Assembly: GCA_030390025.1 (NCBI GenBank)
Contig: CM059432.1
Coordinates: 14,510,001 to 14,574,000 of the forward strand
DNA: 64,000 nucleotides
Reading direction: 5' to 3'
Source of the DNA: Squalus acanthias
Taxonomy: Eukaryota
Below the pieces are notes generated by a model that saw nothing but the letters and a program-made list of their open reading frames with translations, did no database searches and had not been told where the DNA came from. How positions within the stretch are numbered: position 1 is the first letter of the stretch; each line of letters opens with the position of its first letter. This document shows positions 18,425-62,561 of the stretch, piece by piece. The position numbers and the translations under genes were made by a program.

Positions 18425-19005
18425 AACGTAAGAACATAAGAAATAGGAGCAGGAGTCGGCCATTCGACCCATCGAGTCTGTTCTGCCATTCAATATGATC
18501 ATGGCTGATCTTCTACCTCAACTCCACTTTCCTGCACTATCCCCATATCCCTTGATTCCCTTAATATCAAAAAATCTATCGATCCCAGTCTTGAATATAC
18601 TCAATGACTGAGCCTCCACAGCCCTCTGGGGTAGAGAATTCCAAAGATTCACCACCCTCTGAGTGAAGAAATTTCTCCTCATCTCAGTCCTAAATGGCTG
18701 ACCCCTTATTCTGAGACTGTGGCCCCCTGGTTCTAAAGTGAGAAGTCGCACAACACCAGGTTATAGTCCAACAGCTTTATTTGAAATCACAAGCTTTCGG
18801 AGCGCTGCTCCTTCTTCAGGCACTTCACCTGACGAAGGAGCAGCGCTCCGAAAGCTTGCGATTTCAAATAAAACTGTTGGACTATAACCTGGTGTTGTGC
18901 GACTTCTCACTTTTGTCCACCCCAGTCCAACACCGGCATCTCCACATCATGGCCCCTGGTTCTAGACTCCCCAGCCAGGGGAAACATCCTCCCTGCATCT
19001 ACCCT
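18425..19005 (-). mobile_element. CR1 3' fragment hosting the 18736-18949 insertion
   Basis: ORF 18518-18751; sequence resumes after the TSD. Confidence 0.85.
18736..18949. mobile_element. Fold-back Penelope-type element (family 2) with a hammerhead motif in each arm
   Basis: Near-perfect inverted arms ~18736-18822 / ~18826-18912 plus ~37-nt unpaired tail; ~15-bp TSD TGGCCCC(C)TGGTTCTA in a CR1 tail; CTGA(C/A)GA-A-GGAGC-AGC-GCTCC-GAAAG-CTT on both strands. Confidence 0.8.
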
Positions 19006-21910
19006 GAAGCTCATATTTTATGAGGTGGTGCATTATGCAGACTTGTTTTCATGATGCTGTCTTTGATACTAAATGAACCAACCCCCATCAGTGCCGTTTG
19101 TTGGGTTTAGTCCTCATTCCGAGCCTAGTTTACAGATATCAGCAGACACAGTGACAGGGAACTCAGTGTCCCTGGGATAGGGAGGGGAAAAATCAGCCAA
19201 GGTTCCCAATTCCAGATCACATTTCAGTGATCCCTGCTGAACTGTGGTGAGGACAGATTTGAGCCTGGCTATGATACGCTTCACCCCTCCACCCGCCCCA
19301 GGTTCAAACTCACTATCAAGGCTCACACATGAATAATGGCCACTTAGGTGAAATACTTAAGGCTCTTCACCACCCACAGAACTGTACACCAACAAGCAGT
19401 TAATGTTTTCAGAGGACAAAGGGAGGGGAGAAAACTGGCAAAGGTAAAAGGATTGTCTTTTAAATATGTTATAAATAATACATCCAGTACTTAGACTGCA
19501 GGGCTTGGATGAAAAATGCAAACTATTATTCTTGTGGCCTATGGTATCACCTGATTAGATTGTAAGACAATCCAATCGAGATGGTTGAGGGGTGATTTCA
19601 ATGAGGTGTTTAAAATGATAACGGGGTTCAATAAGGTGGATACAGGGAAACTATTTCTTCTGCTGGGAGAATTCAGAACAAGAAGGCATAATCTGAAAAT
19701 CAGAGCTAATCCTTTTAGGAGTGAAATCAGGAAGCACTTTTTCCCCACACAAAGGGTCGTGGAAATCTGGAACTCACTCCCCCAAAAAGCTATGGAGGCT
19801 GGGGGGCAATAGAAAATTTCAAAACGGAGATCGATAGATTTTTGTTAGGCAAGGGTATTACGGGTTGCAGATTTCCATGATCCTCTGGATGCTGGGTCAA
19901 TTGAAATGCGAGAGACTGAGATCAATAAACATGAGACATCCTGGTGTTAAAGAGTGAAATCCGAGTAATAATCACCTTTGATGGAGGCCTAAGGTATTGT
20001 CTCTTTATTTTGAGTGCCATGCTGCCCTGCTTTGTTACTGCTGTGCTTAGCTGTAATTTCACAAACAGTCTTACTTACATCGAATGCCTCGCAGCATTTT
20101 AAAGACCTGGATTCGGCTTCCCCGAGCATCATCCTTCCAGTGAAAACAAGTCCAACTCTCAGTCTCTCCTCATGACTGAGAGGCCGTGACCAGAATTATC
20201 CTTATGTTCTCTGTTCTGAACCTTCATTAATGCATCTTTCGAAGGTAGGGTCTCCAAAATTTTAAATGTTGCTCAACATAAATTTAGAATAACTCATTTT
20301 GATATACGGGTACGGTCAAATGTTTCTGAGATGCAGCCTGGTATGTAATCAGATTGATTTGTTAATTAACAGCTTCTAGAAGCTTTCAGTAAATGATCAA
20401 TAATCGTCGTCAATCCATTTTCTTCCCACTTGTACTAATGGTCAGTACCTGTACTAAATGAATTTCCAGTGATTAAGGTTTAAATCCAAAGGTCTTTTTG
20501 CACACACGTTGGAATTGTCTTCATACCCAGTCGCTGTGAAAGTGATTTGTTTTCTAAATTCAGCATGTATGTTTGAAATGTCCTGCTCCAGTACACTTTA
20601 CCGTAAATTTATCTATATTAAATTCTATTTGTAATTCCCTAGCCATACATTTAATTGTTCCAGATCTCTTTAAATGCATTTTCTCCTTTAAATGTGTCAC
20701 CCGGTCCCATAGCCTGATACGATAAGCAGACTTGGCAATATTGCAATAAACACTGTCTGCCACATAGTTTATAAATAAGGTGAACAGCAGGCAGGAGACC
20801 AAAAACACACCCTTGATCGTCACTGCCTCCTCAGATTCAGCGTATGCATTGTTTGGAACAGGAAACGTTACATTTGCACAATGAAAAAGTCCTCTTTTGA
20901 AAAAAAAAGGATCACTTTTTGTAAATATTTCCATTTTGGGCCAAGCAGCATCAGTATCAAGCGTTCCCCAGATCACAGTTCATGCTGAGTAATGCTCCCT
21001 CCACTCTGCCCAAACAATATGCATCAGCCCAAATTTCAAGGGCAACAGTGTGTTATTCTGTAATTTCCCACATCAGTATCTGAGTGTCAAGCTTTCATTA
21101 TCGCCTACCTCTCGCTGCCCTGCAAAAACATTTTTTTTTTGGTGCGCGGTCCCTTTAACGGGCTTGCGCGGCCCATTTTTGCACATGTGCAGATTCTTGC
21201 ATTGAAAGGCCGGTGAGCGGCCTCCAGACCACCGTGCAGCCACACAGCTCAGCCGGAACGTCGGTGCCGAGTCCTCTCTTTGAACTGGCGCAGTCCTGGT
21301 GGCAATGGTACTCCCACAATAGAGTTATGTAGGGAATTCCAGGATATTGGACCCAGCGACAATGAAGGGAATGGTGTGTTCCCACACATTGCTGCTCTTG
21401 TCCTTTTTGGTGGTAAAGGGCACAGGGGAGGGAGTGGACACAAGGATGTCTGATATGTGAAATGGAAACATTCCACTGTGCAGGGAGGGGCGCTCCTCGA
21501 GTTTGGAGTTGTGGGATGTCGCTGGCTAGAGTAGAAGGAGCTTCATTCTACACTAATTTTACTAGATCTGTCCGGGGAGTGTTGGAAATATACAGCAGAC
21601 CCTATAAAAGAGAAAATACAGATGCTGACAAACCTGTTGAGCGTTTCCATCAGTTTCTGTTTTGATTTCAGGTTTCCAGCATTCAGTTTTAAAACAAATT
21701 AGAACGATTGATTATAACACTTGATGCAAAGGTTAAAAACCCGTTGTTCCCCAACACGAATAACCTTCGCCTTCAGAAACAAACAAAAAAATCACCTCCC
21801 CACCCCCCCAAAAAAAGATGATGGAGAATATATAACCAGGCAGCTTGATGCTGGTAAATCAGACTTTTCTGCTACTTAGCCCAGAGATATTGCTGAGTAA
21901 CTTGTCCTAT

Positions 21911-21944
21911 AGCGACACCTGGTGGCTATTCTATATTTCTGCAA
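21911..21944 (-). promoter_or_regulatory. Candidate CTCF site with upstream module
   Basis: Minus strand reads TGCAG-13nt-CCACCAGGTGTCGCT: close match to the CTCF core plus the TGCAG upstream (ZF9-11) module at the expected spacing. Confidence 0.65.
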
Positions 21945-23165
21945 CTTCACCGACATGAGCCGTGAGAAATTACACTTGTGAATTATGTTGTATATCCTAT
22001 TTAGTTCTTAGTTAAATAGCAATTGGGAAATATATGGAACAAAAGAATCCTTCATCCTTCACTCACCACACACATTCACCTTAAATTTCTACCATACTCT
22101 TCAAAAGAATTAAAAATGTTTACCTGGGCAATGGTAATTCTCCAAAGGCCGTTTCACTGAACCCACTGCACCATTTTAACTAGTTTAGCTAATTAGCTAG
22201 AAAGAGAGCTACCAATTTGGGGATCAGTAAAGAAAAACTTGCATTTATATAGCGCCTTTCACGACCACCAGACGTCTCAAAGCGCTTTACAGCGAATGAA
22301 GTACTTTTGAAGTAAGGAAATAGGTACCAATAAAATCGGTTTTAAAATACTTTAATTAGTTTAGTTATCAGGGTAGTTATTCCTGCACAATAAATAGTTC
22401 ATACCATAAAGTTTTCAATCAGTTTTGGTCAGAATTAACTAAATGCTTTTTAAAAAAAAGTATTACAGCTAAGAGTCTTTATCTGTTCATTAAGTTGTGA
22501 CAAGGTACAAGTGGCAGTTATTTAAGCTTCTTGAATATAAAGTCTTATGGCTAGTGCGCCCATTACAGCTAAAATTGAGACATCCGAGTCTCACCAGTGA
22601 AAGTGCACATCAGACCTGCACCTGATTTTATTTCAAATACAAGTGTTATTTCAACTGAATAGGTACAGAATGTAATAATCAATAAATAGTGAGCTAGAAA
22701 AAGCTACCAATTTAGAAATCAGTTAGGAAACAGCTACCAATAAAAGGGTAACCAATAAAATCATTTAAAAATATTTTTTGAAGATCATTTCAGCTGAGGA
22801 CATGGTAGCGAAATAAGCTTTCGAACATAATGACATAAAAGATTACTTACTTCGCAACAAAGTCTAATTTAGAGAGAGATATGCATTACATAAAGCCTCC
22901 TCGCAATATCAGGATGTCCCACAGTAATAGGTTACTTTTTGAAGTATATTTGTGGCAGTCAGTGTGCACACAGCAAAGTCCTATGAACAGCGAATCATTG
23001 GTTTGATGTTGGTTGAGGAATGAATGTTGGCCAGGGAGATCTCCTTATTCTTCTTTGAATAGTGCATGGGATCTATAATTCCAAAGTAGGCAGGTCATCT
23101 AACATTTCATCCAAAAGATGGCACCTTCAATAATGCAGTAGTGCATTGCAATGCCAACCTAAAAT

Positions 23166-23439
23166 ATGAGAAGTCGCACAACACCAGGTTATAGTCCAAC
23201 GGTTTTATTTGAAATTACGAGCTTTCGGAGCGCTGCTCCTTCGTCGGGTAAAGTGAGGGAATACAAATCAGTTACAAGGCATATATAGACAGAGAACAAT
23301 GTGTTCCCTCACTTTACCTGACGAAAGAGCAGTGCTCCGAAAGCTTGTAATTTTAAATAAATCTGTTGGACTATAACCTGGTGTTGTGCGACTTCTCATT
23401 TTTGTCCACCCCAGTCCAACACCGACATCTCCACATCAT
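23166..23439. mobile_element. Fold-back Penelope-type element (family 2), second copy
   Basis: Same arms and tail as 18736-18949 with a longer loop; TSD AACCTAAAATATG (23156-23168 / 23440-23452); hammerhead motifs at 23215-23251 (-) and 23314-23350 (+). Confidence 0.8.
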
Positions 23440-23589
23440 AACCTAAAATATGCACGCGAGTTCAAAGCCCACCTCGGCAACTGTGGAATTTAAATTCAGT
23501 TAATTAAATAAATCTGGAATAAAAAACTAGCATCAGTAATGGTGACCATGAAACTTTACGACCATGATTGTCGTAAAAACCCATCTGAT

Positions 23590-25000
23590 GGAAAACAATG
23601 TGGAAAACTACCCAGATATGTCATGTCCACAAAAAGCAGGACAAATCCAATCCGGCTAATTACCGCCCCATCAGTCTACTCTAAATCATCAGCAAAGTGA
23701 TGGAAGGTGTCGTCGACAGTGCTATCAAGCGGCACTTATTCACCAATAACTTGCTTACCGATGCTCAGTTTGGGTTCCACCAAGATAACTCTGCTCCAGA
23801 CCTCATGACAGCATTGGTCCAAACATGGACACAAGAGCTGAATTTCAGGAGGTGAGGTGAGAGTGACTGCCCTTGACATCAAGGAGCCCCAGTAAAACTG
23901 AAGTCAATGGGAATCAGGGGGAAACCTTTCCACTGGCTGGAGTCATATATAACACAAAGGAAGATAGTTGTGGTTGTTGGAGGTCAATCATCTCAGCCCC
24001 AGGACATCAATGCAGGAGTTACTCAGGGCAGTGTCCAAGGCCAAACCATCTTCAGCTGCTTCATCAATGACCTTCCTGCTATCATAAGGTCAGACGTGGG
24101 GATGTTCGCTGATGACTGCACAGTGTTCAGCGCCATTCACAACTCCTCAGATAATGAAGCAGTCCATGGCCGCATGCAACAAGACCTGGACGACGTTCAG
24201 GCTTGGGCCGATAAGTGGCAGGTAATATTCACGCCACAGAAGTGCCAGAAAATGACTTACTCCAACAAGCGAGAGTCTAACCACCACCCCATGACATTCA
24301 ACGGCATTATCATCGCCGAATCCCCCACCATCAACATCCTGGGGGGTCACCATTGACCAGAACTTAACTGGAGCCAGCCACATAAATACTGTGGCAACAA
24401 GAGCAGGTCAGAGGTTGGGTATTCTGCGGTGAGTGTCTCACCTCCTGACTCCCCAAAATCTTTCCACCATCTACAAGGCACAAGTCAGGAGTGCGATGGA
24501 ATACTCTCCACTTGCCTGGATGAGTGCAGCTCCAACAACACTCAAGAAGCTCGACACCATCCAGGACAAAGCAGCTCGCTTGATTGGCACCCCATCCACC
24601 ACCGTAAACATTCACTCCCTCCATCACCAGTGCACCGTGGCTGCAGTGTGTACCATCTACAAGATGCACTGCAGCAACTCGCCAAGGCTCCTTCGGCAGC
24701 ACCTCCCAAACCCACGACCTCTACCACCTAGAAGGACAAGGGCAGCTGACGCATGGGAACACCATCACCTCCAAGTTCCCCTCCAAGTTTCACACCATCC
24801 TGACTTGGAAATATATTGCCATTCCTTTATCGTCACTGGGTCAAAATCCTGGAACTCCCTCCCTAACAGCACTGTGGGAGTACCTTCACCACACGGACTG
24901 CAGCGGTTCAAGATGGTGGCTCACCACCACCTTCTCAAGGGCAATTAGGGATGGGCAATAAATGCTGGCCTTGCCAGCAACGCCCACATCCCAGGAATGA
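23590..25000 (+). mobile_element. Third LINE family (CR1/Jockey-group RT), 5'-truncated
   Basis: NYRPISL, GVTQGSV, FADD, IYKAQVRSAMEYSPLAW; distinct tail GGGATGGGCAATAAATGCTGGCCTTGCC. Related pieces at ~4280-4790 (-), ~28148-28382 (+), ~46870-47880 (+). Confidence 0.85.
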
Positions 25001-25244
25001 AATTTTAAAAAATCTCCAGCATTGGCATGGAGTCTCCAGGAATTAAGATTAATCTTCAGAACACTGCTGCGAGCAACCCTGGAGAAAAATCATAAGAGCA
25101 TTTAAAAAAGTGTGTTTTTCATTTTGTTTGACCACTTCTGTTTATTAGTTATAAAAAATATTGGAGATGGGGGAAAAAAGGCTATATGACTGACAATCAA
25201 GATTCAATTGGGTAATGAGTCTTTGCACTTTCTGGCATTTTTAA

Positions 25245-25960
25245 AATTAGTTTATGGGATCAGGGCGTCGCTGGCAATGCCAGCATTTATTGCCCATCCC
25301 TAGTTGTCTTTGAGAAGGTGGTGGTGAGCCACCTTCTTGAACCGCTGCAGTCCGTGTGGTGACGGTACTCCCACAGTGCTGTTAAGTAGGGAGTTCCAGG
25401 ATTTTGACCCAGCAACAATGAAGGATCAGCGATATACTTCTAAGTCAGGATGGTGTGTGACTTGGAGGGGAACTTGCAGGTGATGGTGTTCCCATGTGCC
25501 TGCTGCCCTTGTCCTTCTAGGTGGAAGAGGTCGCGGGTTTAGGAGGTGCTGCCGAAGAAGCCTTGACGAGTTGTTGCAGTGCATCTTGCAGATGGTACAC
25601 ACTGCAGCCACGGTACGCCGGTGGTGGAGGGAGTGAATGTTTAAGCTGGTGGATGGGGTGCCAATCAAGCGGGCTGCTTTGTCCTGGGTGGTGTCGAGCT
25701 TCTAGTGTTGTTGGAGCTGCACTCATCCAGGCAAGTGGAGAGTATTCCATCACACTCCTGACTTGTGCCTTGTAGATAGTGGAAAGGCTTTGGGGAGTCA
25801 GGAGGTGAGACACTCGCCGCAGAATACCTAGCCTCTGCCCTGCTCTTGTTGCCACAGTATTTATGTGGCTGGTCCAGTTAAGTTTCTGGTCAATGGTGAC
25901 CCCCCAGGATGTTGATAGTGGGGGATTCAGCGATGGTAATGCCATTGAATGTCAAGGGGC
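25245..25960 (-). mobile_element. Third LINE family 3' fragment, inverted relative to 23590-25000
   Basis: ORF 25517-25945 is nearly identical in translation to 24433-24948. Confidence 0.88.
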
Positions 25961-26482
25961 GGTGGGCATGGAAAGGCAGTGCACCATGAGGATGGACGTG
26001 TTAGGAGACCAATGGCGAGAGCGTGGGGGCGGGGCAGTGGAGGCTGGAGGTCATGTGAGGAAACCTCCAGGAACACATTGAACCAAAGTTGCGAACTCTA
26101 CTTACAGCCTCCTGCCAGAGGGAAGCGTGGTGCCAAATGAGTCAATACCTAAAATTATCTACAGAGCTGCCATGTGTGTGCATGGAATGTCAAAAAACAT
26201 TTTTTTTGGAGTTGTGTTCCTCGACATGAGGCCCAATGCTTGAATTCATCAGGCTTCCCAGAGCTCAGACTGACTGCAAACTCTCAGAAGACACCAGTCA
26301 CTGTACAATCAATCTGTGCATTACAATTCCCAGAATACCCACCTGCATTGAAACCATAGAAGCAATTGTTAGGACCATTAGTGAATACTTGAAAGTAACT
26401 GAATTGCTTTTGCATAAAAAGAAGAAAACACAATAAAGCATCAATTTATGAACTTTACCTGTGATAACAGACAGCAAGAGGG

Positions 26483-29870: not shown

Positions 29871-30388
29871 CTAAAGGGGCCAGGGCTAGTAATTATCCCT
29901 TCATATATACCTACCCTCAATGGGTGAGGAAAACACTGTGCACTCAATTTAACATCCATGAGCAATACTACAATATATAAACTCTTGCATCTATTATATA
30001 TTGTCATATGCCAAGTGCATGTCAACAAAAAATCTTTACTGTATCTGATTTCCCCAAGAAACAATAACAAAAAAAAAACCTTAACTGAACTCTGATCACA
30101 TCTCAAGTTTCTTTCCAAATTCAGTCAGTGGGCTTAAGCACACCTTCCGACCTGCATTGGTGTAATCTCTAACTCACCATGAGGTCTTTAAATAAATGTG
30201 GTTTCTATTCTAATAAAATGGGTCACATGAACCCTGTGCTGCAGACATTTTCTACCCTTATGGCTGCATCCAACTTGTAGTTATTCTTAGATCGCCAGTT
30301 TATTCTTTCTTAAAGAAAAAGTAAATTTACAAGATAAATTTACTTTCCAGGGCAATGCATTGGCCAAGTTCATCAAGAGTATCACTGA

Positions 30389-30803
30389 AATAAACACAGA
30401 AAATGCTGGAAATACTCAGCAGGTCAGGCAGCATCTGTGGAGAGAGAAACAGAGTCAACGTTTCAGGTCGATGACGTTTGATCAGAACTGGAAAAAGTTA
30501 GAGACGTAACAGGTTTTAAGCAAGTACAGAGGCAGGGAAAGGACAAAAGGGAAGGTCTGTGATAGGGTGGAAGGCAGGAGTGATTAAATGACAAAAGGGA
30601 TGATGGTGCAAGGTGAAAGGAGATGGTAATGCGACAAGTAAAGAAACAAAAGATGGATCTAGAGGTGTAAATGGGAATCAGAAACAGCAACAGCTGAAAC
30701 GTTCACTCTGTTTCTCTCTTCACAGATGCTGCCTGACCTGCTGAGTATTTCCAGCATTTTGTTTTTATTTCAGATTTCCAGCACCTGCAGTATTTTGCAT
30801 TTG
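30389..30803. mobile_element. Penelope family 1 insertion with inverted pLTRs
   Basis: Minus-strand pLTR (30389-~30690) followed by plus-strand partial pLTR (~30694-30803); 15-bp TSD CAAGAGTATCACTGA (30374-30388 / 30804-30818); mutated hammerhead core (CTGATCA) at 30453-30489 (-). Confidence 0.88.
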
Positions 30804-31355
30804 CAAGAGTATCACTGACGACTGCCACAGCAATAGAAGACCGAGGTTCAATATGCCTTAGAGTTCCTAATTACAGCTGTGCTGCCACAGGAAGGTACCA
30901 AGTATCTTCCTCTGCATTAGGCGTTTGCAGGATTCACTGAAGGCTGGAAAAAGGCTGTCCGTCTGCCCTAACTCTATGGAGAATAGAGACCCTTTGTACC
31001 CTGTACCTGAAGAGAATAGAAGTGATCAGAATCGGTTTAGAACGGTGACCAAAAGGTTCTTTGCAGCTAGAGTGCGGGGGGGGGGGAGGGGGAGGGTTGT
31101 CTATTTGGTGGTAATGAAAACCATGGGCTGTTTCCCCCTGTGTTAAGTTCTAATCTTATTTGGCCACAGAAAATTAAATTATAGAGCATTTTGTGTTACT
31201 TCCACTTTCTCCTTTAAAAAGGAGACTATTGGAAGATTTCCAAGAAGATGCAATACTTAGACTGAAGGAAAGATCAAAATTATATATAGCGCCTTATGTT
31301 TCTCAAATGTCTTAGTATTACACTAAGAATGATTTCCTTTGATGCACAGTGATGA

Positions 31356-37700: not shown

Positions 37701-40700
37701 GTAGGCATAGTCTCAGGATAAGGGGTCGGCCACTTAAGACTGAGATGAGAAGGAATTTCTTCACTCAGGAGGGTTGTGAATCTTTGGAATTCTCTGCCCC
37801 AGAGGGCTGTGAACGTTGAGTCGTTGAGTATATTCAAGGCTGAGATAGATTGATTTTTGGACTCTAGGGGAATCAAGGGATATGGAGATCGGGCGGGAAA
37901 GTGGAGTTGAGGTCGATGATCAGCCATGATCTTATTGAATGGCGGAGCAGGCTCGAGGGGCCGTATGGCCCACTCCTGCTCTTATTTCATATGTTCTTAT
38001 GACTTATGTAGGCAAAACCAGCAGTCATTTTGTGTACAGCAACAAAGAAAAATGACCAGTTCACCTCTTTTTCCGGTACATTGATGACTGTATCGGTGCC
38101 GTCTCCTGCTCTCGCCCTGAACTAGAACATTTCATTCACTATGCTTCCAATTTCCACCCTTCCCTCACCTTCACATGGTCCATCTCCGACTCTTCCCTTC
38201 CCTTCCTCGACTTCTCCATCTCCATCTCTGGGGATAGGTTATTGACTAACATTCACTACAAGCCCACCGACTCCCACAGCTACCTGGACTACACTTCCTC
38301 CCACCCCGCCTCCTGTAAGGACTCTATTCCATTCTCCCAGTTTCTCCGTCTCCGCCGCATCTGCTCTGATGATGCCACCTTCCATACCAGTGCTTCCGAC
38401 ATGTCTTCCTTTTTCCTCAACCGAGGATTCCCCTCTACCGTGGTCGACACGGCCCTCGACCGTGTCCGTTCTATCTCCCGCACATCTGCCCTCACCCCTG
38501 CCCCTCCCTCCCGGAACCACGATAGGGTTCCCCTTGTCCTCACCTTTCACCCCACCAGCCTCCACATTCAACGGATCATCCTCCGCCATTTCCGCCACCT
38601 CCAGCGTGATCCCACCACCAAACACATCTTCCCCTCACCTCCCCTTTCAGCATTCCGTAGGGACCGCTCCCTCCGCGACACCCTAGTCCACTCCTCTACC
38701 ACCCCCAGCACCCCTTCCCCTTCGCCCGGCACCTTCCCGTGCACGCGCAGGAGATGCAACACATGCCCTTATACCTCCCCTCTTCCCACTGTCCAGGGCC
38801 CCAAACACCCCTTCCAGGTGAAACAGCGATTTACTTGTACTTCCTGCAATTTAGTATACTGTATTCGCTGCTCACGATGTGGACTCCTCTACATTGGGGA
38901 GACCAAACGCAGATTGGGTGACCGCTTTGCGGAACACCTCCGTTCAGTCCGTAAGGGGGACCCCGAGCTCCCGGTGGCCTGTCACTTTAATTCTCCGCTC
39001 CACTCCCACTCTGACCTCACCGTTCTCGGCCTATTACACTGTTCCACGGAAACTCAGCGTAAGCTCGAGGAACAGCACCTCATTTTTCGTTTAGGCACGC
39101 TACAGCCCTCTGGACTCAATATCGAGTTCAACAATTTTAGATCATAACCTCAGCTCTAATCACATTTATATTTTATTTTATCCACCCTTTTATTTGTCCC
39201 CCCCCACCTTTTTTTCCTCCTAGAAGCTGGCAGCTGTCCTTCATTCTGCCAGTGGATTTCACACTTCATTCAGCCTTAATCTGTCACATTAACACCACCT
39301 CTAGCCTTGCATATCTCTTAATGTCTCTTAATCTCCTCCTTTGTTCCTTTATCCCCTCCCCTTTTCCCAGCTTTACCCTGGCCTTAAATCTATTTGATTT
39401 CCGGCTCTTCCCAGTTCTGATGAAAGGTCATCGACCTGAAACGTCAACTCTCTTTCTCTCTCCACGGATGCTGCCTGGCCTGCTGAGTTTTTCCAGCGTT
39501 TTCTGTTGTTATTTCGGATTTCCAGCATCCGCAGTATTTTGCTATCGGACCAGTTAATCTGTTTAGGTGGCGCTGGTTAAGAGCTGAATGTTGGCCAGGA
39601 CATCGGAAGAACGACCTGCTCTTTTAAAAAGTGCCACGGGATCTTTTACCTCCACTTGAACAGGCAGATGGAGCCACAGTAGAACATCTCATCCAAAAGA
39701 TGGCACCTCTGGCATTGCACTGAAGTATCATCCTGAATAATGTGCTCAGGTCCTGAAGTGAGGATTGAACCCACATCCTTCTAATTCCGAGGAGAGAGTG
39801 CTACCACTGAACCAAGCTAGCATTGTATGGCAGTAATTATATCAAGTCATTAGTTACTGCACTGGGTGCTGTACCTAACTGCTGTATTACAGAGGGGTAC
39901 AAACCAAGAAACAGAAGAGTTAGCCCACCATCCTTTTAAGTTAGCTCGGACTGTTAGGTTGAAAGTCTGATTCCGTCAAAGAATTTCAAAACCAGTGGTT
40001 GCAAGTATACCATACAAAACTGCCAATTACTCCTGAATTAACAGCAATTTGACTTGGCTCACAACGATGGCTGGTATGGTAAATAAAAAAAAAAGTGTAA
40101 CATTTCTGCAATACAAACTTGCCCCATGAAGTTTGGGTCAAGATACACTGTAGAACATGGCACATGAAGAAAATGGAGAGAGAAAAATAAAGAATTTTGC
40201 AATGCTGAAAATCCTGGCACTGTCCAGAGAGACAACAATTTCAATTCTGCACGCAATACAATAGTATTCTAACAACGCTCAGACCCAGAATATATTTTAA
40301 GTGTGTTGGGGGGGGGGGGTCAAAAAAAATTAAACTAGTTGTATTAGAACTTGGAAACATTTGCTGCCGTTTCTCTTCTTATAAGAAAGATAGACTTGCA
40401 TTTGTATACTGCCTTTCACAACCTCAGGACATCCCAAAGCACTTTACATCCAATGAAGTACTTTTTGCAGTGTAGTCACTGTTGTAATGTAGGAAATGCA
40501 GCAGAAATATGCGCACAGCAAACTCCCACAAACAGCAATGTCATAATGACTAGATAATCTGTGTTTTGTGATGTTGATTGAGGGATAAATATTGTCCAGG
40601 ACACAGGGATAACTCCCCTGCTCTTCCTCGAAATAGTGCTGTGGGATCTTTTACGTCCACCTGAGAGGGCAGACAGGGCCTTGGTTTCCAGTCTCATCTG

Positions 40701-55700: not shown

Positions 55701-58700
55701 TGGAAGCTACATCATTAAATTAATTTAAAACAGAAAGAGATAGTTTCCTAGAGGTAAAGGGAATTAGGGGTTACGGTGAGCGGGCAGGAAATTGGACATG
55801 AGGCTGAGTTCGGATCGGTCAAGGCCCTGTGGGTGGCGGAGCGGGCCCAGGGGCTGATTTGCCGGGTCCTGCTCCTACTTCTTGTGTTCTTTAGATTTGA
55901 GGTTAGGATCAGATCAGTCATGATCTTATTGAATGGCGGAGCAGGCTCGAGGGGCCGATTGGCCTACTCCTGCTCCTATTTCTTATGTAATTTATAATGG
56001 GGAATGAGGAAACGGCAGAGAAATTAAATAAATACTTTGATTCTGTCTTCACGGAGGAAGACACAAAAAACCTCCCAGAAATACGATAAAACCAAGGGTG
56101 TGGTGAGAATGAGGAACTTAAAGAAATTAGTAAAAAAACAGCACTAGCAAAACTAATGGGACTAAAAGTTAATAAATCCCAAGGACCGGATGACCTACAT
56201 CCAAGGGTTTTGAAAGAGGTGGCCATTGGGATAGTGGACGCATTGGTTGTCATCTTCCAAAATTCTATAGATTCTGGAACGGTTCCTGCAGATTGGAGGA
56301 CAGCAAATGTAACCCCGCTATTTAAGAAAGGAGGGAGAGAGAGAAAACGGTTAGCCTCACAGTAGTTGGAAAATGCTGGAATCTATTATAAAGGATGCAA
56401 TAACTGGGCACTTAGAAACTAATAGTAAGATTGGGCAGAGTCAACATGGATTTATGAAAGGGAAGTCCTGTTTGACAAACCTACTGGACTTCTTTGTGGA
56501 TGTAACTAGTGGAGTAGACAAAGGGGAACAGGTAGATGCGGTGTATTTGGATTTTCAGAAGGCCTTCGATAAGGTCCCACACAAGAGTGTGGTGAACAGA
56601 ATTAGGGCACATGGAATTGGTTGTAATATACTAGCATGGATTGAGAATTGGTTAACAGACAGAAAACAAAGAGTAGGGATAAACGGGTCTTTTGCAAGAT
56701 GGCAGGCTGTGACTAGTGGGGTACCACAAGGATCGGTGCTTGGGCCCCAGCTATTCACAATCTATATCAATGATTTGGATGAGGGGACTAAATGTAACAT
56801 TTCCAAATTTGCTGATGACACAAAGCTAGGTGGCAGTGTCAGTTGCAAAGAGGCTTCAAGGGGATCTCGACAGGCTCAGTGAGAGGGCGAGAACATGGCA
56901 GATGGATTATAATGTGGATAAATGTGAAGTTATCCACTTTGGTAGAAAAAACAGAAAGGCAGAGTATTTCCTAAATGGTGAAAGATTGGGGAATGCAGAT
57001 GCTCAAAGAGACCTGGGTGTCCTTGTACATGAGTCACTGAAAGTGAATGTGCAGGTGCAGCAAGCCATTAGGAAGGCAAATGGTATGCTGGCCTTCATTA
57101 CAAGAGGATTTGAGTACAGGAGTAAAGAAGTCTTACTCCAATTATATCAGGCCTTAGTGAGACCACACCTGGAGTACTGTGTACAACTTTGGTCTCCTTA
57201 CCTAAGGAAGGATATACTTGCCATAGAGGAAGTACAACGAAGGTTCACGAGATTGATTCCTGGGATGGCGGGACTGTGGTATGAGAAGAGATTGAGTAAA
57301 CTAGGACTGTATTCTCTTGAATTCAGAAGAATGAGAGGGGATCTCATTGAAGCATACAAAATTATTACAGGGCTTGATAGGATGGATGCTGGGAGATGTT
57401 TCCCTTGGCTGGGGATTGTAGAACCAGGGGCCACAGCCTCAGGATAAAGGGTAGGCCATTCAGAACTGAGATGAGAAGAAATTTCTTCACACAGAGGGTG
57501 GTGAATCTTGGGAATTCTCTACCCCAGAGGGCTGTGGAGGCTCAGTCATTGGGTATATTCAAAACAGAAGTCGATAGATTTCTGACTAGTAAGGGCATCA
57601 AGGGATATGGCGATAGGGCCGGTGAATGGAATTGAGGCAGAAGATCAGCCATGATTTCATTGAACGGCGGAGCAGGCTCGAAGGGCCTACTCCTGCTCCT
57701 ATTTCTAATGTTCTTAGCCAGCTCGGACGAAAGGCCAACGACCTGAAACGTCAACTCTGTTTCTCTCGCTAAAGATGCTGCCTGACCTGCTGAGTATTTT
57801 CAGCATTTTCTGTTTTTATTCCACAATTATTTTTACTGGGGAATAAAATGCCCCCAAGTAAATCAAATGTCTAATGTCCAAAATGAGATATGGTATTAAT
57901 CAAGTTAAAATAATTAAATTACATATTTCACAATAAGATTACATTTAACCATTGAATTCTCTTTTTTTTTTTAACGTTTTCAATGCCTCGAAGGCTTCAG
58001 CCTCGCCAAAGTCCTGGACTTGAAGTTCTCGTTACTGCCGAGTGTTGTGACATTGTGAGCACAATTTGTATTGTGTAGTCTGAGCATAACCAACGTATCT
58101 CATTTTCCAGGATGCATCAGTGCCGTTCAATCTGCTGTACTGGATAGCAAATGTTCTACTTCACTTGTTAGGTTTTAATTATACAGTGTGATTTTGTAGG
58201 TGGCAGGTGTAAAAAGTTCTAATGCAACCATGTTATATTAAGAATATAAGAAATAGGAGCAGGAGTCGGCCATTCGAGCCTGCTCCGCCATTCAATGAGA
58301 TCATGGCTGATCTTCTGCCTCAACTCCATTCACCGGCCCTATCGCCATATCCCTTGATGCCCTTACTAGTCAAAAATCTATCGACTTCTGTTTTGAATAT
58401 ACCCAATGACTGAGCCTCCACAGCCCTCTGGGGTAGAGAATTCCAAAGATTCACCACCCTCTGTGTGAAGAAATTTCTTCTCATCTCAGTCCTGAATGGC
58501 CTACCCTTTATCCTGAGGCTGTGGTCCCTGGTTCTAGACTCCCCAGCCAAGGGAAACATTCTCCCAGCATCCATCCTATCAAGCCCTGTAATAATTTTGT
58601 ATGCTTCAATGAGATCCCCTCTCATTCTTCTGAATTCAAAAGAATACAGGCCTAGTTTACTCAATCTCTTCTCATACCAGTCCCGCCATCCCAGGAATCA

Positions 58701-61700
58701 ATCTCGTGAACCTTCGTTGCACTCCCTCTATGGCAAGTATATCCTTCCTTAGAGACCAAAATTGTACACAGTACTCCAGGTGTGGTCTCACTAAGGCCCT
58801 ATATAATTGGAGTAAGACTTCTTTACTCCTGTACTCAAGCCAGCATACCATTTGCCTTCCTAATGGCTTGCTGCACCTGCACATTCACTTTCAGTGACTC
58901 ATGTACAAGGACACCCAGGTCCCTTTGAGCATCTGCATTCCCCAATCTTTCACCATTTAGGAAATACTCTGCCTTTGTTTTTTTCTACCAAAGTGGATAA
59001 CTTCACATTTATCCACATTATATTCCATCTGCCATGTTCTCGCCCACTCACTGAGCCTGTCGAGATCCCCTTGAAGCCTCTTCACATCCTCCTCGCAACC
59101 GACACTGCCACCTAGCTTTGTATCATCAGCAAATTTGGAAATGTTACATTTAGTTCCCTCATCCAAATCATTGATATAGATTGTGAATAGCTGGGGCCCA
59201 AGCACCGATCCTTGTGGTACCCCACTAGTCACAGCCTGCCATCCTGCAAAAGACCCATTTATCCCTACTCTTTGTTTTCTGTCTGTTAACCAATTCTCAA
59301 TCCATGCTAGTATATTGCCCCCAATTCCATTCGACCAGCTCAGGAAATCAGATGATTTGAAAAGCTGAAGTTCAGGTGGCCCTAGATGGTGACAGACCGG
59401 GCAACCTGAACCTGACCCGCTATTACTACAAAAAAAAATCCTGAGTTGATAGTCATGTTGATCTCACAGATGGACATATCAATTCTTGGGATTGCAGCCC
59501 TAGCTTGGGCTACTTGTGTGGAATAAACACCTGCTACATCATAGCTTGCCATATCCAGAAAGGGGTGCAAAAACCTCTATTATGCAAGACAGTCTATGTT
59601 GCTTCCATATACTCAATGCAGCTTCTGGTCCCACTCCATGAGCTGTTACAAAGAACTGTGTTGTCAATCAAAAATGTCTTTGATCCACAAGGGAGTGGCA
59701 GGCACTCAACATCATTTAGGTAAACTAATTTACAGAACAGATAATTGTCATACAACTTCAGACTTTTAAAATCAAAGCTTGGCTTCACCTAACCACTAAT
59801 TCTTCATTTTGATCTTTCGCTCCTTTCCTCCTCCTTTCAACCATAATCATTTTCCCCTTGAGGTTTCACGACAGTAAAAAAAAAATAATCTACATTAACT
59901 GGTCTAAACCGTTTGCATAGTACTCTTCCCAAGTCGAACTCATTATCCACATTCTAGTGACATTGGTTTGATTACTCCAACTGAACTTTTCACCTAGTAT
60001 TCCAAGATAATCGTAAATTCACAATCAACTTTGTGGTTAACCTTTATATGTAGAGAATATGGTAATACAGAAGCAACAGAACTTTGATATCCCAGAATTG
60101 GTCACAGACTCGAATATTTATCACATTAAATTCAGGAGTGCACAAATTAAATGCAATGAAATTGTGACAATAATTCCATGCCAGATTACCCAAATGTAAG
60201 CAAGTTATAACTTTACAATAGGGCTCGTAGATACCTTTATTACATGTGGGTGGTTGCAAATAGATTCACAACAACAACAACTTACATTTATATAGTCCCT
60301 TTAACATAGTAAAAGGTCCCAAGGTGCATCACAGGAGAGTGAACAAAATTTGACATCAAGCCACATAAGGAGATATTAGGGTAGATGCTTGGTCAAAGAG
60401 GTAGGTTTTAAGAAGCATATTAAATGAAGGAAAGAGGTTTAGGGAGAGAATTCCAGAGTTTAAGATCTCAGCAGCAGAAGGCACGGCCACCAATGGTAGA
60501 GCGATTAAAACAAAAAAAATCGACATGGAGTCAAGTCCTTGGAGAAAGTAATGGAAAGATGCTACTGTCTATTATCCCCTTCCCACTTCTAGTATTGCCA
60601 CTAAGCTTATCTAATACCACAGGGAAATAAAAATCCGAGGCCAAGCAAGTGCACCGTGTTGACACTCTCCTGCGGCACATCACTGCTGCTGTAGTTCCCA
60701 AATGTTTTTTTGCAGACACACGAGCCGGTGTTTTGACGGGTGAAATCTGTTAATTGTTCCACTGGGAGTTCAGTGCAGTGTGAAAACTGACAGGAGCCTG
60801 GCAAGGTTGAAATGCGTGTCCCCGACGGGTGGTGGTGCACAGACCGTGGGTATGTGTTTGCGCGTGAGTGAACTCGGGTCACAGGCCAGGGGGGCACGGG
60901 GGGGCACAGGAGGGTCAGACCCCTGGCCAGTGAAAGACTTGCATTTATATAGCACCTTTCACGACCACCGGACGTCCTGAAGTGCTTTACAGCCAACAAA
61001 GTACTTTTTGAAGTGTAGTCACTGTTATAATGTAGGGAAACGCGGCAGCCAATTTGCGCACAGCAAGCTCCCACAAACAGCAATGATAATGACCAAATAA
61101 TCTGGTTTTTTTTTTAAAGTGATGTTGATTGAGGGATAAATATTGGCCAGGACACCGGGGATAACTCCCCATCTCTTCGAAATAGTGCAATGGATCTTTT
61201 ACGTCCACCCGACAGAAAGTAGACAGGGACTTGATTTAATGCCTCCTCCGAAAGACAGCACCTCCGACAGTGCAGCATTCCCTCAGCACTGCAGTGGAGT
61301 GTCATAAAATCATAAAATGATAACAGCACAGGAGGCCATTTCGCCCATCAAGCCCGTGCCGGCTCTCTGCAAGAGCACTTCAGCTAGTCCCACCCCGCCG
61401 CCCTGCAAATTTTTTTCCTTCAGGTACTTGTCCAATTCCCTTTTAAAAGTCATGATTGAATCTGCCTCCACCACCTTCTCAAGCAGTGCATTCCAGGTCC
61501 TAACCACTCGCTGCGTAAAAAAGTCGCCTTTGGTTCTTTTGCCAATCACCTTGAATCTGTGTCCTCTGGTTCTCGACCCTTCTGCCAATGGGAACAGTTT
61601 CTCTCTATCTACTCAGTCTAGACCCCCTCATGATTTTGAATATCTCTATCAAATCTCCTTTCAACCTTCTCTGCTCCAAGGAGAATAACCCCAGCTTCTC

Positions 61701-62561
61701 CAGTCTGTCCAGGTAACTGAAGTCCCTCATCCCTGGAACCATTCTTTTAAATCTTTTCCGCACCCTCTCAAAAGGTCTTCACATCCTTCCTAAAGTGCGG
61801 TGCCCAGAATTGGACACAATACTAGAGTTGAGGTCAGACCAGTGTTTTATAAAAAAGGTTCATCATAACTTCTTTGCCTTTGTACTCTATACCTCTATTT
61901 ATGAAGCCCAGGATCCCGTATGCTTTTGTAACTGCTTGGTCAACCTGCCCTGCCACCGTTAATGATTTGTGCACATACACCCCCAGGTCTCTCTGTTCAT
62001 GCACCCCCTTTAGGATTGTACCCTTTAGTTTATATTGTTAGCTTAGATTTTTTTTTTGTGCTCAAGTCGATGGAATGGGACTTGAACCCATAACCTTCTA
62101 ACTGAGTGTCGAGAGCGCGACCCACTGGCTGACATCTTTTATCAGACCTTTCCCCCCAGTCCCAGACCAACATAAACCCGGGAATAAACAGAGAGCGCGC
62201 CCCCACCCCTCCGGAGTACAGCCGGGGCCTGGGGCCTCCTCCCTCGGTCAAGCCGCTCTCCCCCTTGCACAGACACGCACGTACCGACGGTGGATTTGCA
62301 GGCCTCGCTGAACGTGTCGTCCGTGAAGCGCTCCATCAGGCTGGTCTTGCCCACGCCGCGGCTGCCGATGATGATGACCTGCAGCTTGTAGTCGGCCGGC
62401 CGGGGCGGCGGCCTCCGGCGCCGGGAGTTGGCGGGGCTGCGGCCGGGGCTCGGCGGGGCCCCGCCGGTGGAGAGGCTGTTGGCCGAAACCGACCTGGAGT
62501 TGGAGCTCAGGCCGCCACCGCCGCCGGCCCCTCTCCTCTTCGGTACGGCTGTCCGATCCAT
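34612..62561 (-). CDS. RAB12: Ras-related protein Rab-12, spliced CDS of 6 exons (783 nt, 260 aa)
   Basis: Exons of 277+61+139+90+105+111 nt join in frame. Product has G1 GSRGVGKT, G3 WDTAGQ, G4 GNKLD, G5 EASAK, C-terminal CC prenylation motif and RAB12-specific segments ([36 protein letters not shown]). All introns end AG; donors are GT except intron 5 (GC). Confidence 0.97.
35769..35873 (-). CDS. RAB12: RAB12 exon 5 ([35 protein letters not shown])
   Basis: 105 nt, acceptor ccttAG, donor AAG|GCAAGT (GC type); SAK motif. Confidence 0.95.
37188..37277 (-). CDS. RAB12: RAB12 exon 4 ([30 protein letters not shown])
   Basis: 90 nt, acceptor acacAG, donor GTAAGA; NKxD motif. Confidence 0.97.
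38062..39547 (+). mobile_element. Penelope-like element, 5'-truncated: RT C-terminus + GIY-YIG endonuclease + pLTR
   Basis: Open frame ~38062-39147 with FRYIDD, thumb ([18 protein letters not shown]), CxxxxCxx[18 protein letters not shown]...RFAEH and GLN motifs; 3' terminal repeat; 8-bp TSD GACCAGTT (38054-38061 / 39548-39555). Confidence 0.93.
39413..39449 (+). ncRNA. Minimal hammerhead ribozyme motif (PLE family 1), canonical GUC site
   Basis: AGTT-CTGATGA-A-AGGTC(ATC)GACCT-GAAA-C-GTC-AACT: stem I, core, stem II, GAAA and loopless stem III. Confidence 0.8.
40385..40850 (-). mobile_element. Deu-domain SINE, full length
   Basis: Same family. Confidence 0.82.
41381..43028 (-). mobile_element. 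Young CR1, 5'-truncated, with an open 391-aa RT C-terminal frame
   Basis: ORF 41614-42789 is uninterrupted; one nonsense codon just upstream (GK*CLTN). Confidence 0.93.
43084..43222 (-). CDS. RAB12: RAB12 exon 3 ([46 protein letters not shown])
   Basis: 139 nt, acceptor cttcAG, donor GTAATG; switch II region. Confidence 0.97.
45330..45390 (-). CDS. RAB12: RAB12 exon 2 ([21 protein letters not shown])
   Basis: 61-nt exon, acceptor ttatAG, donor GTAAGT; not in the ORF track, translated by hand. Confidence 0.96.
48335..49876 (-). mobile_element. Young CR1 (~48510-49710) nested in an older CR1 tail
   Basis: Insert is nearly identical to 41381-42570; host tail resumes at AATGACTCAGC. Confidence 0.9.
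50960..53035 (+). mobile_element. Cluster: CR1 fragment (~50960-51400), L2 3' end (~51705-52165), CR1 3' fragment (~52395-53035)
   Basis: Family peptides in ORFs 50943, 51590, 52411 and 52670. Confidence 0.8.
53036..53205 (+). mobile_element. Penelope family 1 pLTR-internal fragment
   Basis: Matches the reverse complement of 30500-30650. Confidence 0.6.
53210..57715 (+). mobile_element. Long degraded CR1 ORF2 with a nested younger CR1 (~54501-55988)
   Basis: Endonuclease (53340-54030) and RT (56150-57635) of the host are separated by an insert ending in its own tail; host text GAGACGGGAG|AATTTATAATGGGG rejoins. Confidence 0.9.
57716..57822 (+). mobile_element. Penelope pLTR fragment (family 1), degenerate hammerhead (CGGACGA)
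   Basis: Similar to 39411-39520; abuts a CR1 3' end. Confidence 0.75.
58237..59330 (-). mobile_element. CR1 3' fragment, inverted close relative of 56610-57715
   Basis: Shared diagnostic peptides ([44 protein letters not shown]). Confidence 0.9.
60933..62134 (-). mobile_element. Deu-domain SINE split by a CR1 3' fragment (61304-62035, minus)
   Basis: SINE body 60933-61303 resumes at 62036-62134; the insert encodes a CR1 ORF2 C-terminus (RTRGHRFKV). Confidence 0.8.

What the first reader, a model, noticed from the sequence alone, without database searches (positions are those of the whole stretch)
18736..23439. Second hammerhead-bearing family: fold-back mini-elements with a ribozyme motif in both polarities
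Seen: two copies (18736-18949, 23166-23439) with ~85-95 bp inverted arms, a shared ~37-nt unpaired 3' tail and 13-15 bp TSDs; each arm holds CTGANGA-A-GGAGC-loop-GCTCC-GAAAG-CT(T/C), one arm mutated to CCGACGA. Stem I is TCAC/GTGA in one copy (read across its two arms) and TTAC/GTAA in the other, a compensatory change. The sequence is unrelated to family 1 outside the core, yet the architecture is the same. Inference: non-coding products of a second Penelope lineage (inverted pLTR plus tail) that look like MITEs but are retrotransposed; they could yield hairpin, small or circular RNAs.
Basis: partly seen in the sequence, partly recalled or inferred. Interest (0 to 1): 0.75.

Follow-up and report, generated by a model that had tools for sequence, protein, structure and literature searches.

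The report
Mirror-image stubs of shark Penelope retrotransposon
These two hairpin-shaped repeats are short, decayed end-pieces of a very abundant Penelope-type jumping gene, a known kind of element, and because the short tail sits on one arm only, whichever arm is longer, each was likely written by two separate copying starts, one from each cut DNA strand.

Summary
In detail: two fold-backs (arms 85 and about 102 bp), a one-sided 37-38 nt tail, 15 and 13 bp target duplications and a minimal hammerhead core in each arm. This is the published insertion shape of endonuclease-bearing Penelope-like elements (inverted 5'-truncated pLTR, one-sided 30-40 bp tail). Opposite-strand hammerhead pairs were reported in 2014. 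The family is huge: 4,000-28,000 contigs per genome-sized run in three organisms, with 3' ends at two fixed points (about +81 and +119), like the two priming sites of the anole element PAc. Corrections: the TCAC/GTGA pair was read across opposite strands. None of four motifs is intact, and the hairpin masks the ribozyme fold by 52-62 kcal/mol. Junctions differ between copies, so this is not a mini-element moving as a unit. Likely mechanism: priming from both target nicks, then head-to-head joining. In 2 of 3 fold-backs in the window the tailless arm is the longer, which rules out simple snap-back of one cDNA. The coding partner was not found. The scan has noted this structure before on other DNA (294 notes, at least 26 genomes). 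Ordinary in kind; modest mechanistic value.

The parts
18720..18735 (+). Copy 1 left target-site duplication (15 bp plus one extra C), inside a CR1-type repeat
18736..18820 (-). Copy 1 inverted, tailless pLTR copy; 5' end 1 nt before the hammerhead core, so it lacks its own stem I 5' strand; 3' end at +81 (counted from the A of the core's ANG)
18821..18912 (+). Copy 1 direct pLTR copy; begins 1 nt before the A (18822) of an initiator-like TCACT motif
18825..18861 (+). Minimal type I hammerhead motif (stem I TCAC/GCGA with a private mismatch, extra A after A9, stem II GGAGC/GCTCC, palindromic AAGCTT); predicted cut 18857|18858, 26 nt after the core ANG
18913..18949 (+). Copy 1 tail, 37 nt, AC-rich; holds the 3' strand (18924-18931) of a possible 8-bp helix with 18876-18883
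18950..18964 (+). Copy 1 right target-site duplication (first 2 nt also fit the family's continuation)
23156..23168 (+). Copy 2 left target-site duplication, 13 bp (last 3 nt shared with the arm end)
23166..23299 (-). Copy 2 inverted, tailless pLTR copy, the longer of the two; the unpaired centre 23268-23299 is upstream pLTR sequence with a TATA-like TATATAT 33 nt before the initiator-like A; core mutated to CCGACGA
   Evidence: (loose ends before 23300)
23300..23401 (+). Copy 2 direct pLTR copy with hammerhead 23314-23350 (stem I TTAC/GTAA; first pair of stem II broken by G>A)
23402..23439 (+). Copy 2 tail, 38 nt
23440..23452 (+). Copy 2 right target-site duplication
30374..30818 (.). Comparison: family 1 fold-back with 15-bp duplication, tail on the right only, tailless left arm much the longer
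38054..39555 (+). Comparison: family 1 5'-truncated coding copy (RT C-terminal part, Cx4CxxC linker, GIY-YIG at E 4e-4 below Pfam cut-off) plus pLTR with hammerhead at 39417; 8-bp duplication

Best explanation
Each hairpin is a single insertion, flanked by one target duplication, of two short head-to-head copies of the terminal repeat (pLTR) of a very abundant Penelope-like retrotransposon, likely made when the element's protein primed copying from both nicked target strands at two start points 37-38 nt apart. Shown: one duplication around each unit, two fixed 3' ends across many family contigs, variable inner junctions, and a tail on one arm only. Inferred from PAc biochemistry (PMC11167929): the GIY-YIG domain nicks both strands 13-15 bp apart. 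One nick primes at about +118/119 (arm with tail), the other at about +81 (arm without). Both cDNAs stop early and are joined at their ends. Neither template was self-cleaved, since all four arms run 5' past the cut site. After insertion the arms decay neutrally. The hammerhead is a passenger of the pLTR, structurally conserved between families, but dead in these copies.
For: The anatomy matches published PLE insertions: inverted 5'-truncated copy, 30-40 bp tail at one end, inverted pLTR with tail and 8-10 bp duplications, 34-37 bp repeat. The motif has all four min-HHR hallmarks of PMC4209133. Cut at +26 and distal end at +118/119 equal the PAc numbers (+26; 111-118). Listed 3' loose ends fall at 23398-23408 and 23439-23441 (X1: 165 and 127 contigs in the rows shown), followed by unrelated flanks (agreement about 0.4). 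The same two clusters appear in organisms B and D (X9: 325 and 238). 3 of 3 fold-backs in the window carry the tail on one side; in 2 of 3 the tailless arm reaches further 5', which neither direction of one-cDNA snap-back can give. The arms of each copy share two subfamily-diagnostic bases, so each is one event from one template type. Family 1, which has a coding copy in the window, builds the same unit. A marine metagenome contig (L002) carries a hammerhead 32 of 37 identical, about 750 nt behind a PLE-type endonuclease ORF on the same strand.
Against: No RT/endonuclease ORF was linked to family 2: no genome is held, and protein searches found only an 80-aa non-RT look-alike. The L002 link is interrupted by a rearranged antisense piece. 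Two-end priming rests on three fold-backs and on PAc in vitro data; contigs cannot pair left and right ends of the same copy, and only 24 of 330 and 24 of 379 loose-end rows were shown. The numerical position of PAc's proximal start site is not in the text I read. The 8-bp helix near the tail appears in the minimum-energy fold of copy 2 but not of copy 1.
Confidence: 0.8

Rival explanations
1. Same Penelope-like origin, but the mirror image comes from self-priming on an antisense RNA or snap-back of one cDNA (the model proposed in PMC3846280), followed by trimming of one end.
For: Published proposal based on palindromes at inverted junctions. The arms of one copy share diagnostic bases.
Against: A copy cannot contain more than its template. 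In copy 2 and the family 1 fold-back the tailless arm is longer at its 5' end while the shorter arm has the tail. Copy 1 has a blunt junction with no overlap. Tailless ends cluster at a fixed point, which random trimming would not give.
Confidence: 0.12
2. A non-autonomous hairpin mini-element that is itself transcribed and retrotransposed as a unit, yielding functional hairpin, small or circular RNAs with ribozymes in both polarities.
For: Family sequence is present in contigs of runs guessed to be RNA, though these may be DNA. One X5 joint has depth 135, several times that of the other joints listed. Perfect 85-100 bp hairpins could be Dicer substrates (established knowledge).
Against: The two copies have different junctions. 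Every opposite-strand joint listed has its own position and rests on one or two contigs. The ribozyme fold is 52-62 kcal/mol less favourable in the whole hairpin, against 2.6-4.8 in three single arms and 11 in the fourth. 0 of 4 motifs are intact. The motifs are on opposite strands, so the dimer needed by min-HHRs cannot form within one transcript.
Confidence: 0.05
3. A MITE or foldback DNA transposon that carries a hammerhead-like sequence by chance.
For: Short, non-coding, long inverted repeats, high copy number.
Against: 37-38 nt tail outside the inverted repeat; duplications of 13 and 15 bp; variable inner junctions; hammerhead helices kept by two-sided changes in 7 of 9 pairs across families; same unit built by family 1, which has an RT/GIY-YIG copy.
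Confidence: 0.02

Closest known systems
Inverted-pLTR-plus-tail insertions of EN+ Penelope-like elements (Penelope of D. virilis, Adineta Pen2a_Av; PMC8557442, PMC3846280, PMC2377424; passages read)
   Same: Head-to-head inverted 5'-truncated copy, 30-40 bp tail on one end, one duplication of variable length around the unit, TATA-like plus TCACT initiator-like motif in the pLTR (also described for Pen2a_Av).
   Different: Here both copies are cut down to 85-140 nt, so no ORF lies between; duplications are longer (13-15 against 8-10 bp in the Adineta examples); the family was not found in the papers searched.
Poseidon_Ac (PAc) of Anolis (PMC11167929; parts 1-2 of 4 and the text of Figs S1-S2 read)
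   Same: Hammerhead cut 26 nt after the core's ANG; distal end near +118; tail between two fixed ends; uncleaved RNA used as template; AC-rich end.
   Different: In PAc the ORF starts at the core ATG. Here the core reads ACG, and the family-majority stem I puts a stop at codon 10; an in-frame ATG lies at the tail end instead (candidate start, not shown). Clade of family 2 is undetermined.
Minimal hammerheads (min-HHR) of metazoan PLEs (PMC4209133; parts 1-2 of 4 read)
   Same: Extra nucleotide between 9 and 10.1, G10.1-C11.1 pair, palindromic 15.2-16.2, 4-bp helix I; dual motifs 100-700 bp apart on opposite strands were reported there in Schistosoma.
   Different: Helix II is 5 bp (7-8 bp in Schistosoma); sharks were not named in the parts or in the 2 of 3 supplements searched.
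Animal non-LTR retrozymes (bioRxiv 10.64898/2026.07.22.740005; parts 1-3 of 5 read)
   Same: Non-coding, pLTR-derived, type I hammerhead; one chondrichthyan genome was positive.
   Different: Retrozymes are head-to-tail tandem units with two or more same-strand motifs; these are head-to-head pairs.

Membership tests
EN+ Penelope-like element insertion | Inverted 5'-truncated pLTR copy adjoining the direct copy | tested here: met
EN+ Penelope-like element insertion | 30-40 bp tail at one end; two fixed 3' ends in the family | tested here: met
   37 and 38 nt; two end clusters in 3 organisms
EN+ Penelope-like element insertion | Target duplication of variable length | tested here: met
   15 and 13 bp; copy 1 verified against 11 empty paralogues
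EN+ Penelope-like element insertion | Hammerhead motif in the pLTR | tested here: met
EN+ Penelope-like element insertion | Partner ORF with telomerase-like RT and GIY-YIG domain linked to this pLTR | tested here: inconclusive
   Not found; indirect only via L002 and family 1
Minimal type I hammerhead (min-HHR) | Core CUGANGA / GAAA / UH, extra base after A9, G10.1-C11.1, palindromic 15.2-16.2 | tested here: met
   Met by the family pattern
Minimal type I hammerhead (min-HHR) | Helices kept by compensatory change | tested here: met
   Between families 7 of 9 pairs, 94% of 72 cells paired against 8-41% when slid (8 sequences from three lineages, so few independent events); within family 2 one event only
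Minimal type I hammerhead (min-HHR) | Intact, accessible motif in these two copies | tested here: not met
   0 of 4 intact; fold masked by 52-62 kcal/mol in the whole hairpin
Minimal type I hammerhead (min-HHR) | Self-cleavage | not testable with these tools
   needs an assay
MITE / foldback DNA transposon | Inverted repeats at both termini | tested here: not met
   tail lies outside the repeat
MITE / foldback DNA transposon | Fixed-length duplication and uniform structure among copies | tested here: not met
   13 versus 15 bp; different junctions
Non-LTR retrozyme | Two or more tandem units with complete same-strand hammerheads | tested here: not met
   head-to-head arrangement
Rfam MIR821 microRNA | Gathering score 249 bits | tested here: not met
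   106 bits, a generic long-hairpin match

The most novel reading that the evidence does not exclude
The tiny fold-backs are a genomic record of an unresolved step of Penelope transposition. A protein dimer primes from both target nicks at two sites 37-38 nt apart on one RNA. When it does so on the promoter-proximal pLTR, it runs off the RNA's 5' end after only 90-130 nt, at a TATA/initiator start a few bases before the hammerhead. That would explain the inverted pLTR, the one-sided tail and the mass of mini-copies at once. In the window, copy 1's direct arm starts 1 nt before the initiator-like A and a family 1 copy (1489) within 0-2 nt of it. One X5 contig joins that same A to position +82. 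Against it, both arms of copy 2 start upstream of that point (11 and about 45 nt).
Probability: 0.35. Interest if true: 0.5.

Novelty: new member of a known kind. Interest (0 to 1): 0.22.

Why it matters
As an object it is ordinary: a known insertion shape of a known retroelement class, abundant in this genome and its relatives. Its value is indirect. How Penelope-like elements make their inverted pLTR and one-sided tail is stated to be unresolved (PMC8557442, PMC11167929), and a very high-copy family with two fixed 3' ends allows a statistical test of two-end priming from an assembly alone. Practically, such stubs can mislead annotation as MITEs or microRNA hairpins (the only Rfam match in the window), and Rfam found none of the window's hammerhead motifs.

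Tried and rejected
No whole genome is held. Exact DNA patterns from the arm found nothing in metagenome or viral contigs. The hammerhead pattern found 2 metagenome loci and none in viral or prokaryote genomes. Searching for the partner protein with the 44-codon open frame of copy 1: no hit among 14 candidates; 3 hits among representatives, of which one 80-aa look-alike without RT and two unrelated repeat proteins. None of the other RT/endonuclease proteins fetched matched the pLTR frames. That open frame is a private mutation, as the family majority has a stop at codon 10, so 'ORF starts in the hammerhead core as in PAc' is rejected for family 2. Family 1 ORF found no relative in viral contigs. 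Expression: no RNA holder listed; four runs guessed as RNA were laid as contigs and show neither strand, ends nor level. Within-family covariation could not be tested from contigs, since paired positions are 34 nt apart and near the reference edge; absence of listed variants in the core is a power artefact. 5' ends at the predicted cut site: not among the best-supported loose-end rows; all four arms here pass it. Summed depth was not used as copy number. A Pfam scan of L001/L002 frames failed on a coordinate slip and was not repeated. Literature: 9 searches showed no paper on this shark family or stating two-end priming; Repbase, Dfam and subscription journals were not searchable, so the family may already be catalogued. 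Supplements: no motif match in 1 file of PMC8557442 and 2 of 3 files of PMC4209133; the GenBank file of PAc and the preprint's supplements could not be read and may bear on clade and on shark families.
Full report
Setting. The window is repeat-rich animal DNA with many CR1/L2-type LINE fragments (the CR1/L2 labels are from my recall of these protein types, not from a call) and a RAB12 first exon near 62270-62400. The closest named relative of the window's Penelope-type ORF is a bamboo shark protein (69% over 58% of the query), so the host is likely a cartilaginous fish. No whole genome is held.

Observation. Both copies are as described. Copy 1 has 85-bp arms, a 7-nt loop, a 37-nt tail and a 15-bp duplication with one extra C on the left; the rebuilt empty site aligns unbroken to 11 paralogous repeats. 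Copy 2 has arms of about 102 bp, a 32-nt unpaired centre, a 38-nt tail and an exact 13-bp duplication. Such a duplication arose in 0 of 3000 random windows. The centre of copy 2 is not foreign: read on the minus strand it resembles the letters that family contigs carry before 23300, so the left copy is simply longer. The copies are about 93% alike. Over 83 nt the arms differ at 3 sites in copy 1 and 7 in copy 2, and the arms of each copy share two bases that tell copy 1 from copy 2.

The hammerhead. The motif is a minimal type I hammerhead with the four hallmarks listed in PMC4209133. Across 8 sequences (3 of the 4 family 2 arms, leaving out the chimeric left arm of copy 1; 4 family 1 copies; L002), 7 of 9 pairs change on both sides and 94% of 72 cells pair, against 8-41% for slid controls. 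These are three lineages, so few independent events. Within family 2 the majority stem I 3' strand is GTGA (97-99% T at 18859), GTAA is a minority (0.2-8% of depth; higher when copy 2 is the reference), and linkage of TTAC with GTAA is shown only by copy 2. No arm is intact: stem I mismatch; missing stem I; broken G10.1-C11.1; U4 changed to C. In either whole-hairpin transcript the ribozyme fold costs 52-62 kcal/mol, against 2.6-11 in single arms and 3.3-5.3 in family 1 monomers. Two copies of a single arm can pair through the palindrome in a cofold, as expected for min-HHRs, but a fold-back offers no same-strand partner. Rfam found none of these motifs.

The family. 11,291 and 9,439 contigs of two DNA runs of organism A lay on 199 bases; 10,709, 4,275 and 27,922 contigs of organisms A, B and D lay on 132 bases. 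Among the loose-end rows shown (24 of 330; 24 of 379), nearly all 3' ends fall at about +76 to +88 or +115 to +121, counted from the A of the core's ANG, and go on into unrelated flanks; the exceptions are rows of 2 and 3 contigs. Opposite-strand joints are few and each has its own position. After the tail end the loose consensus begins GACTA in 4 of 4 runs, making an in-frame ATG a candidate start of the partner ORF; this is not shown.

Comparison with what is known. PMC8557442 describes an adjacent inverted 5'-truncated copy and a 30-40 bp tail often at one end only (passages). PMC3846280 shows the same unit with 8-10 bp duplications and a TATA plus TCACT motif, and proposes self-priming on an antisense template (passages). 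PMC4209133 reports dual min-HHRs 100-700 bp apart on opposite strands. PMC11167929 shows that PAc nicks and extends both strands, starts at two internal sites that bound the tail (the main one 111-118 nt into the ORF), cuts its hammerhead 26 nt after the start codon, and uses uncleaved RNA. Family 2 and family 1 both give +26, and family 2 ends at +118/119. By eye, the PAc RNA printed in Fig. S1B also has a 7-bp long-range helix before an AC-rich end, like the 8-bp helix 18876-18883/18924-18931 here. Family 1 has a coding copy with a Cx4CxxC linker, the Neptune/Nematis trait. Family 2's clade is open.

Mechanism. Shown: one duplication per unit, one tailed arm in 3 of 3 fold-backs in the window, two fixed family ends, variable junctions, all four arms passing the cut site. 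Inferred: two priming events, one per nick, at the two start sites, then head-to-head joining. The deciding argument is that in copy 2 and in the family 1 fold-back at 30374-30818 the tailless arm reaches further 5'. A tailed first strand that snaps back cannot make a longer copy, and a tailless first strand cannot make a tail. I give 0.93 to PLE origin and about 0.8 to the whole statement. The further idea that stubs end at the RNA's start came to me from earlier notes of this scan. My check is mixed. A TATA-like plus initiator-like pair precedes the core in both families; a strict version of such a pair occurs 10 times in 128 kb of both strands, and family 1's boxes pass only a relaxed pattern. 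1 of 4 family 2 arms starts within 1 nt of it, one 6 nt after, and two 11 and about 45 nt before; one family 1 copy (1489) starts within 0-2 nt.

What is missing. The partner ORF was not found. The nearest evidence is L002, whose hammerhead is 32 of 37 identical to copy 1's and lies behind a PLE-type endonuclease ORF, with a rearranged piece between. Expression, small RNAs and cleavage were not testable.

Verdict. Real, retrotransposed, and a textbook Penelope-like insertion shape in its shortest form. Not a separate mini-element, and not a working two-polarity ribozyme. New member of a known kind; interest 0.22. The scan's index holds 294 notes with these words in at least 26 genomes; they are not counted as evidence.

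Noticed in passing
window 30374-30818: Family 1 fold-back with a 15-bp duplication; tail on the right only; tailless left arm about 290 nt against about 110 nt on the right.
   Followed up: yes
window 38054-39555: 5'-truncated coding Penelope-like copy (363-codon open frame, Cx4CxxC linker, GIY-YIG) with pLTR, hammerhead and 8-bp duplication; other family 1 copies at 1489 and 63257 also have 8-bp duplications and no inverted arm.
   Followed up: partly
window 18822 and 18913 (run X5): One contig (depth 135) joins, on opposite strands, the initiator-like A to position +82 with about 38 letters on the short side: possibly a tail-only piece joined to a copy ending at the predicted start.
   Followed up: no
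window 18860-18907 (run X9): Several joints go back from 18893-18907 to 18860-18868, i.e. short tandem duplications of about 30-50 nt; some start next to the predicted cut site, but an imperfect 8-nt direct repeat explains them equally well.
   Followed up: no
window 18858 (run X21): Two contigs of a run guessed to be RNA leave the family sequence just behind 18858, one base from the predicted cut, into an A-rich stretch; likely one locus.
   Followed up: no
window 18858-18925: Possible 68-nt intron in the sense strand (GTRATT at the cut site; CTCAC branch-like motif, pyrimidine tract and CAG at the arm/tail border), resembling in size and place the 75-bp intron of D. virilis Penelope; no skipping joint was listed in the runs laid.
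   Followed up: partly
window 23158-23407: Copy 2 gives the window's only Rfam match (MIR821, 106 bits, far below gathering): fold-back stubs mimic microRNA hairpins.
   Followed up: yes
L001 and L002: Two marine metagenome contigs with a near-identical hammerhead, a divergent tail, and rearranged PLE-type RT and endonuclease pieces in both orientations.
   Followed up: partly
window 62270-62400, minus strand: First coding exon of a RAB12 gene.
   Followed up: partly
window 24281-25965 and 56611-59330: Long inverted pairs of LINE fragments (about 730 bp; and nested pairs of 321 and 243 bp, 89-96% complementary), without hammerheads.
   Followed up: no
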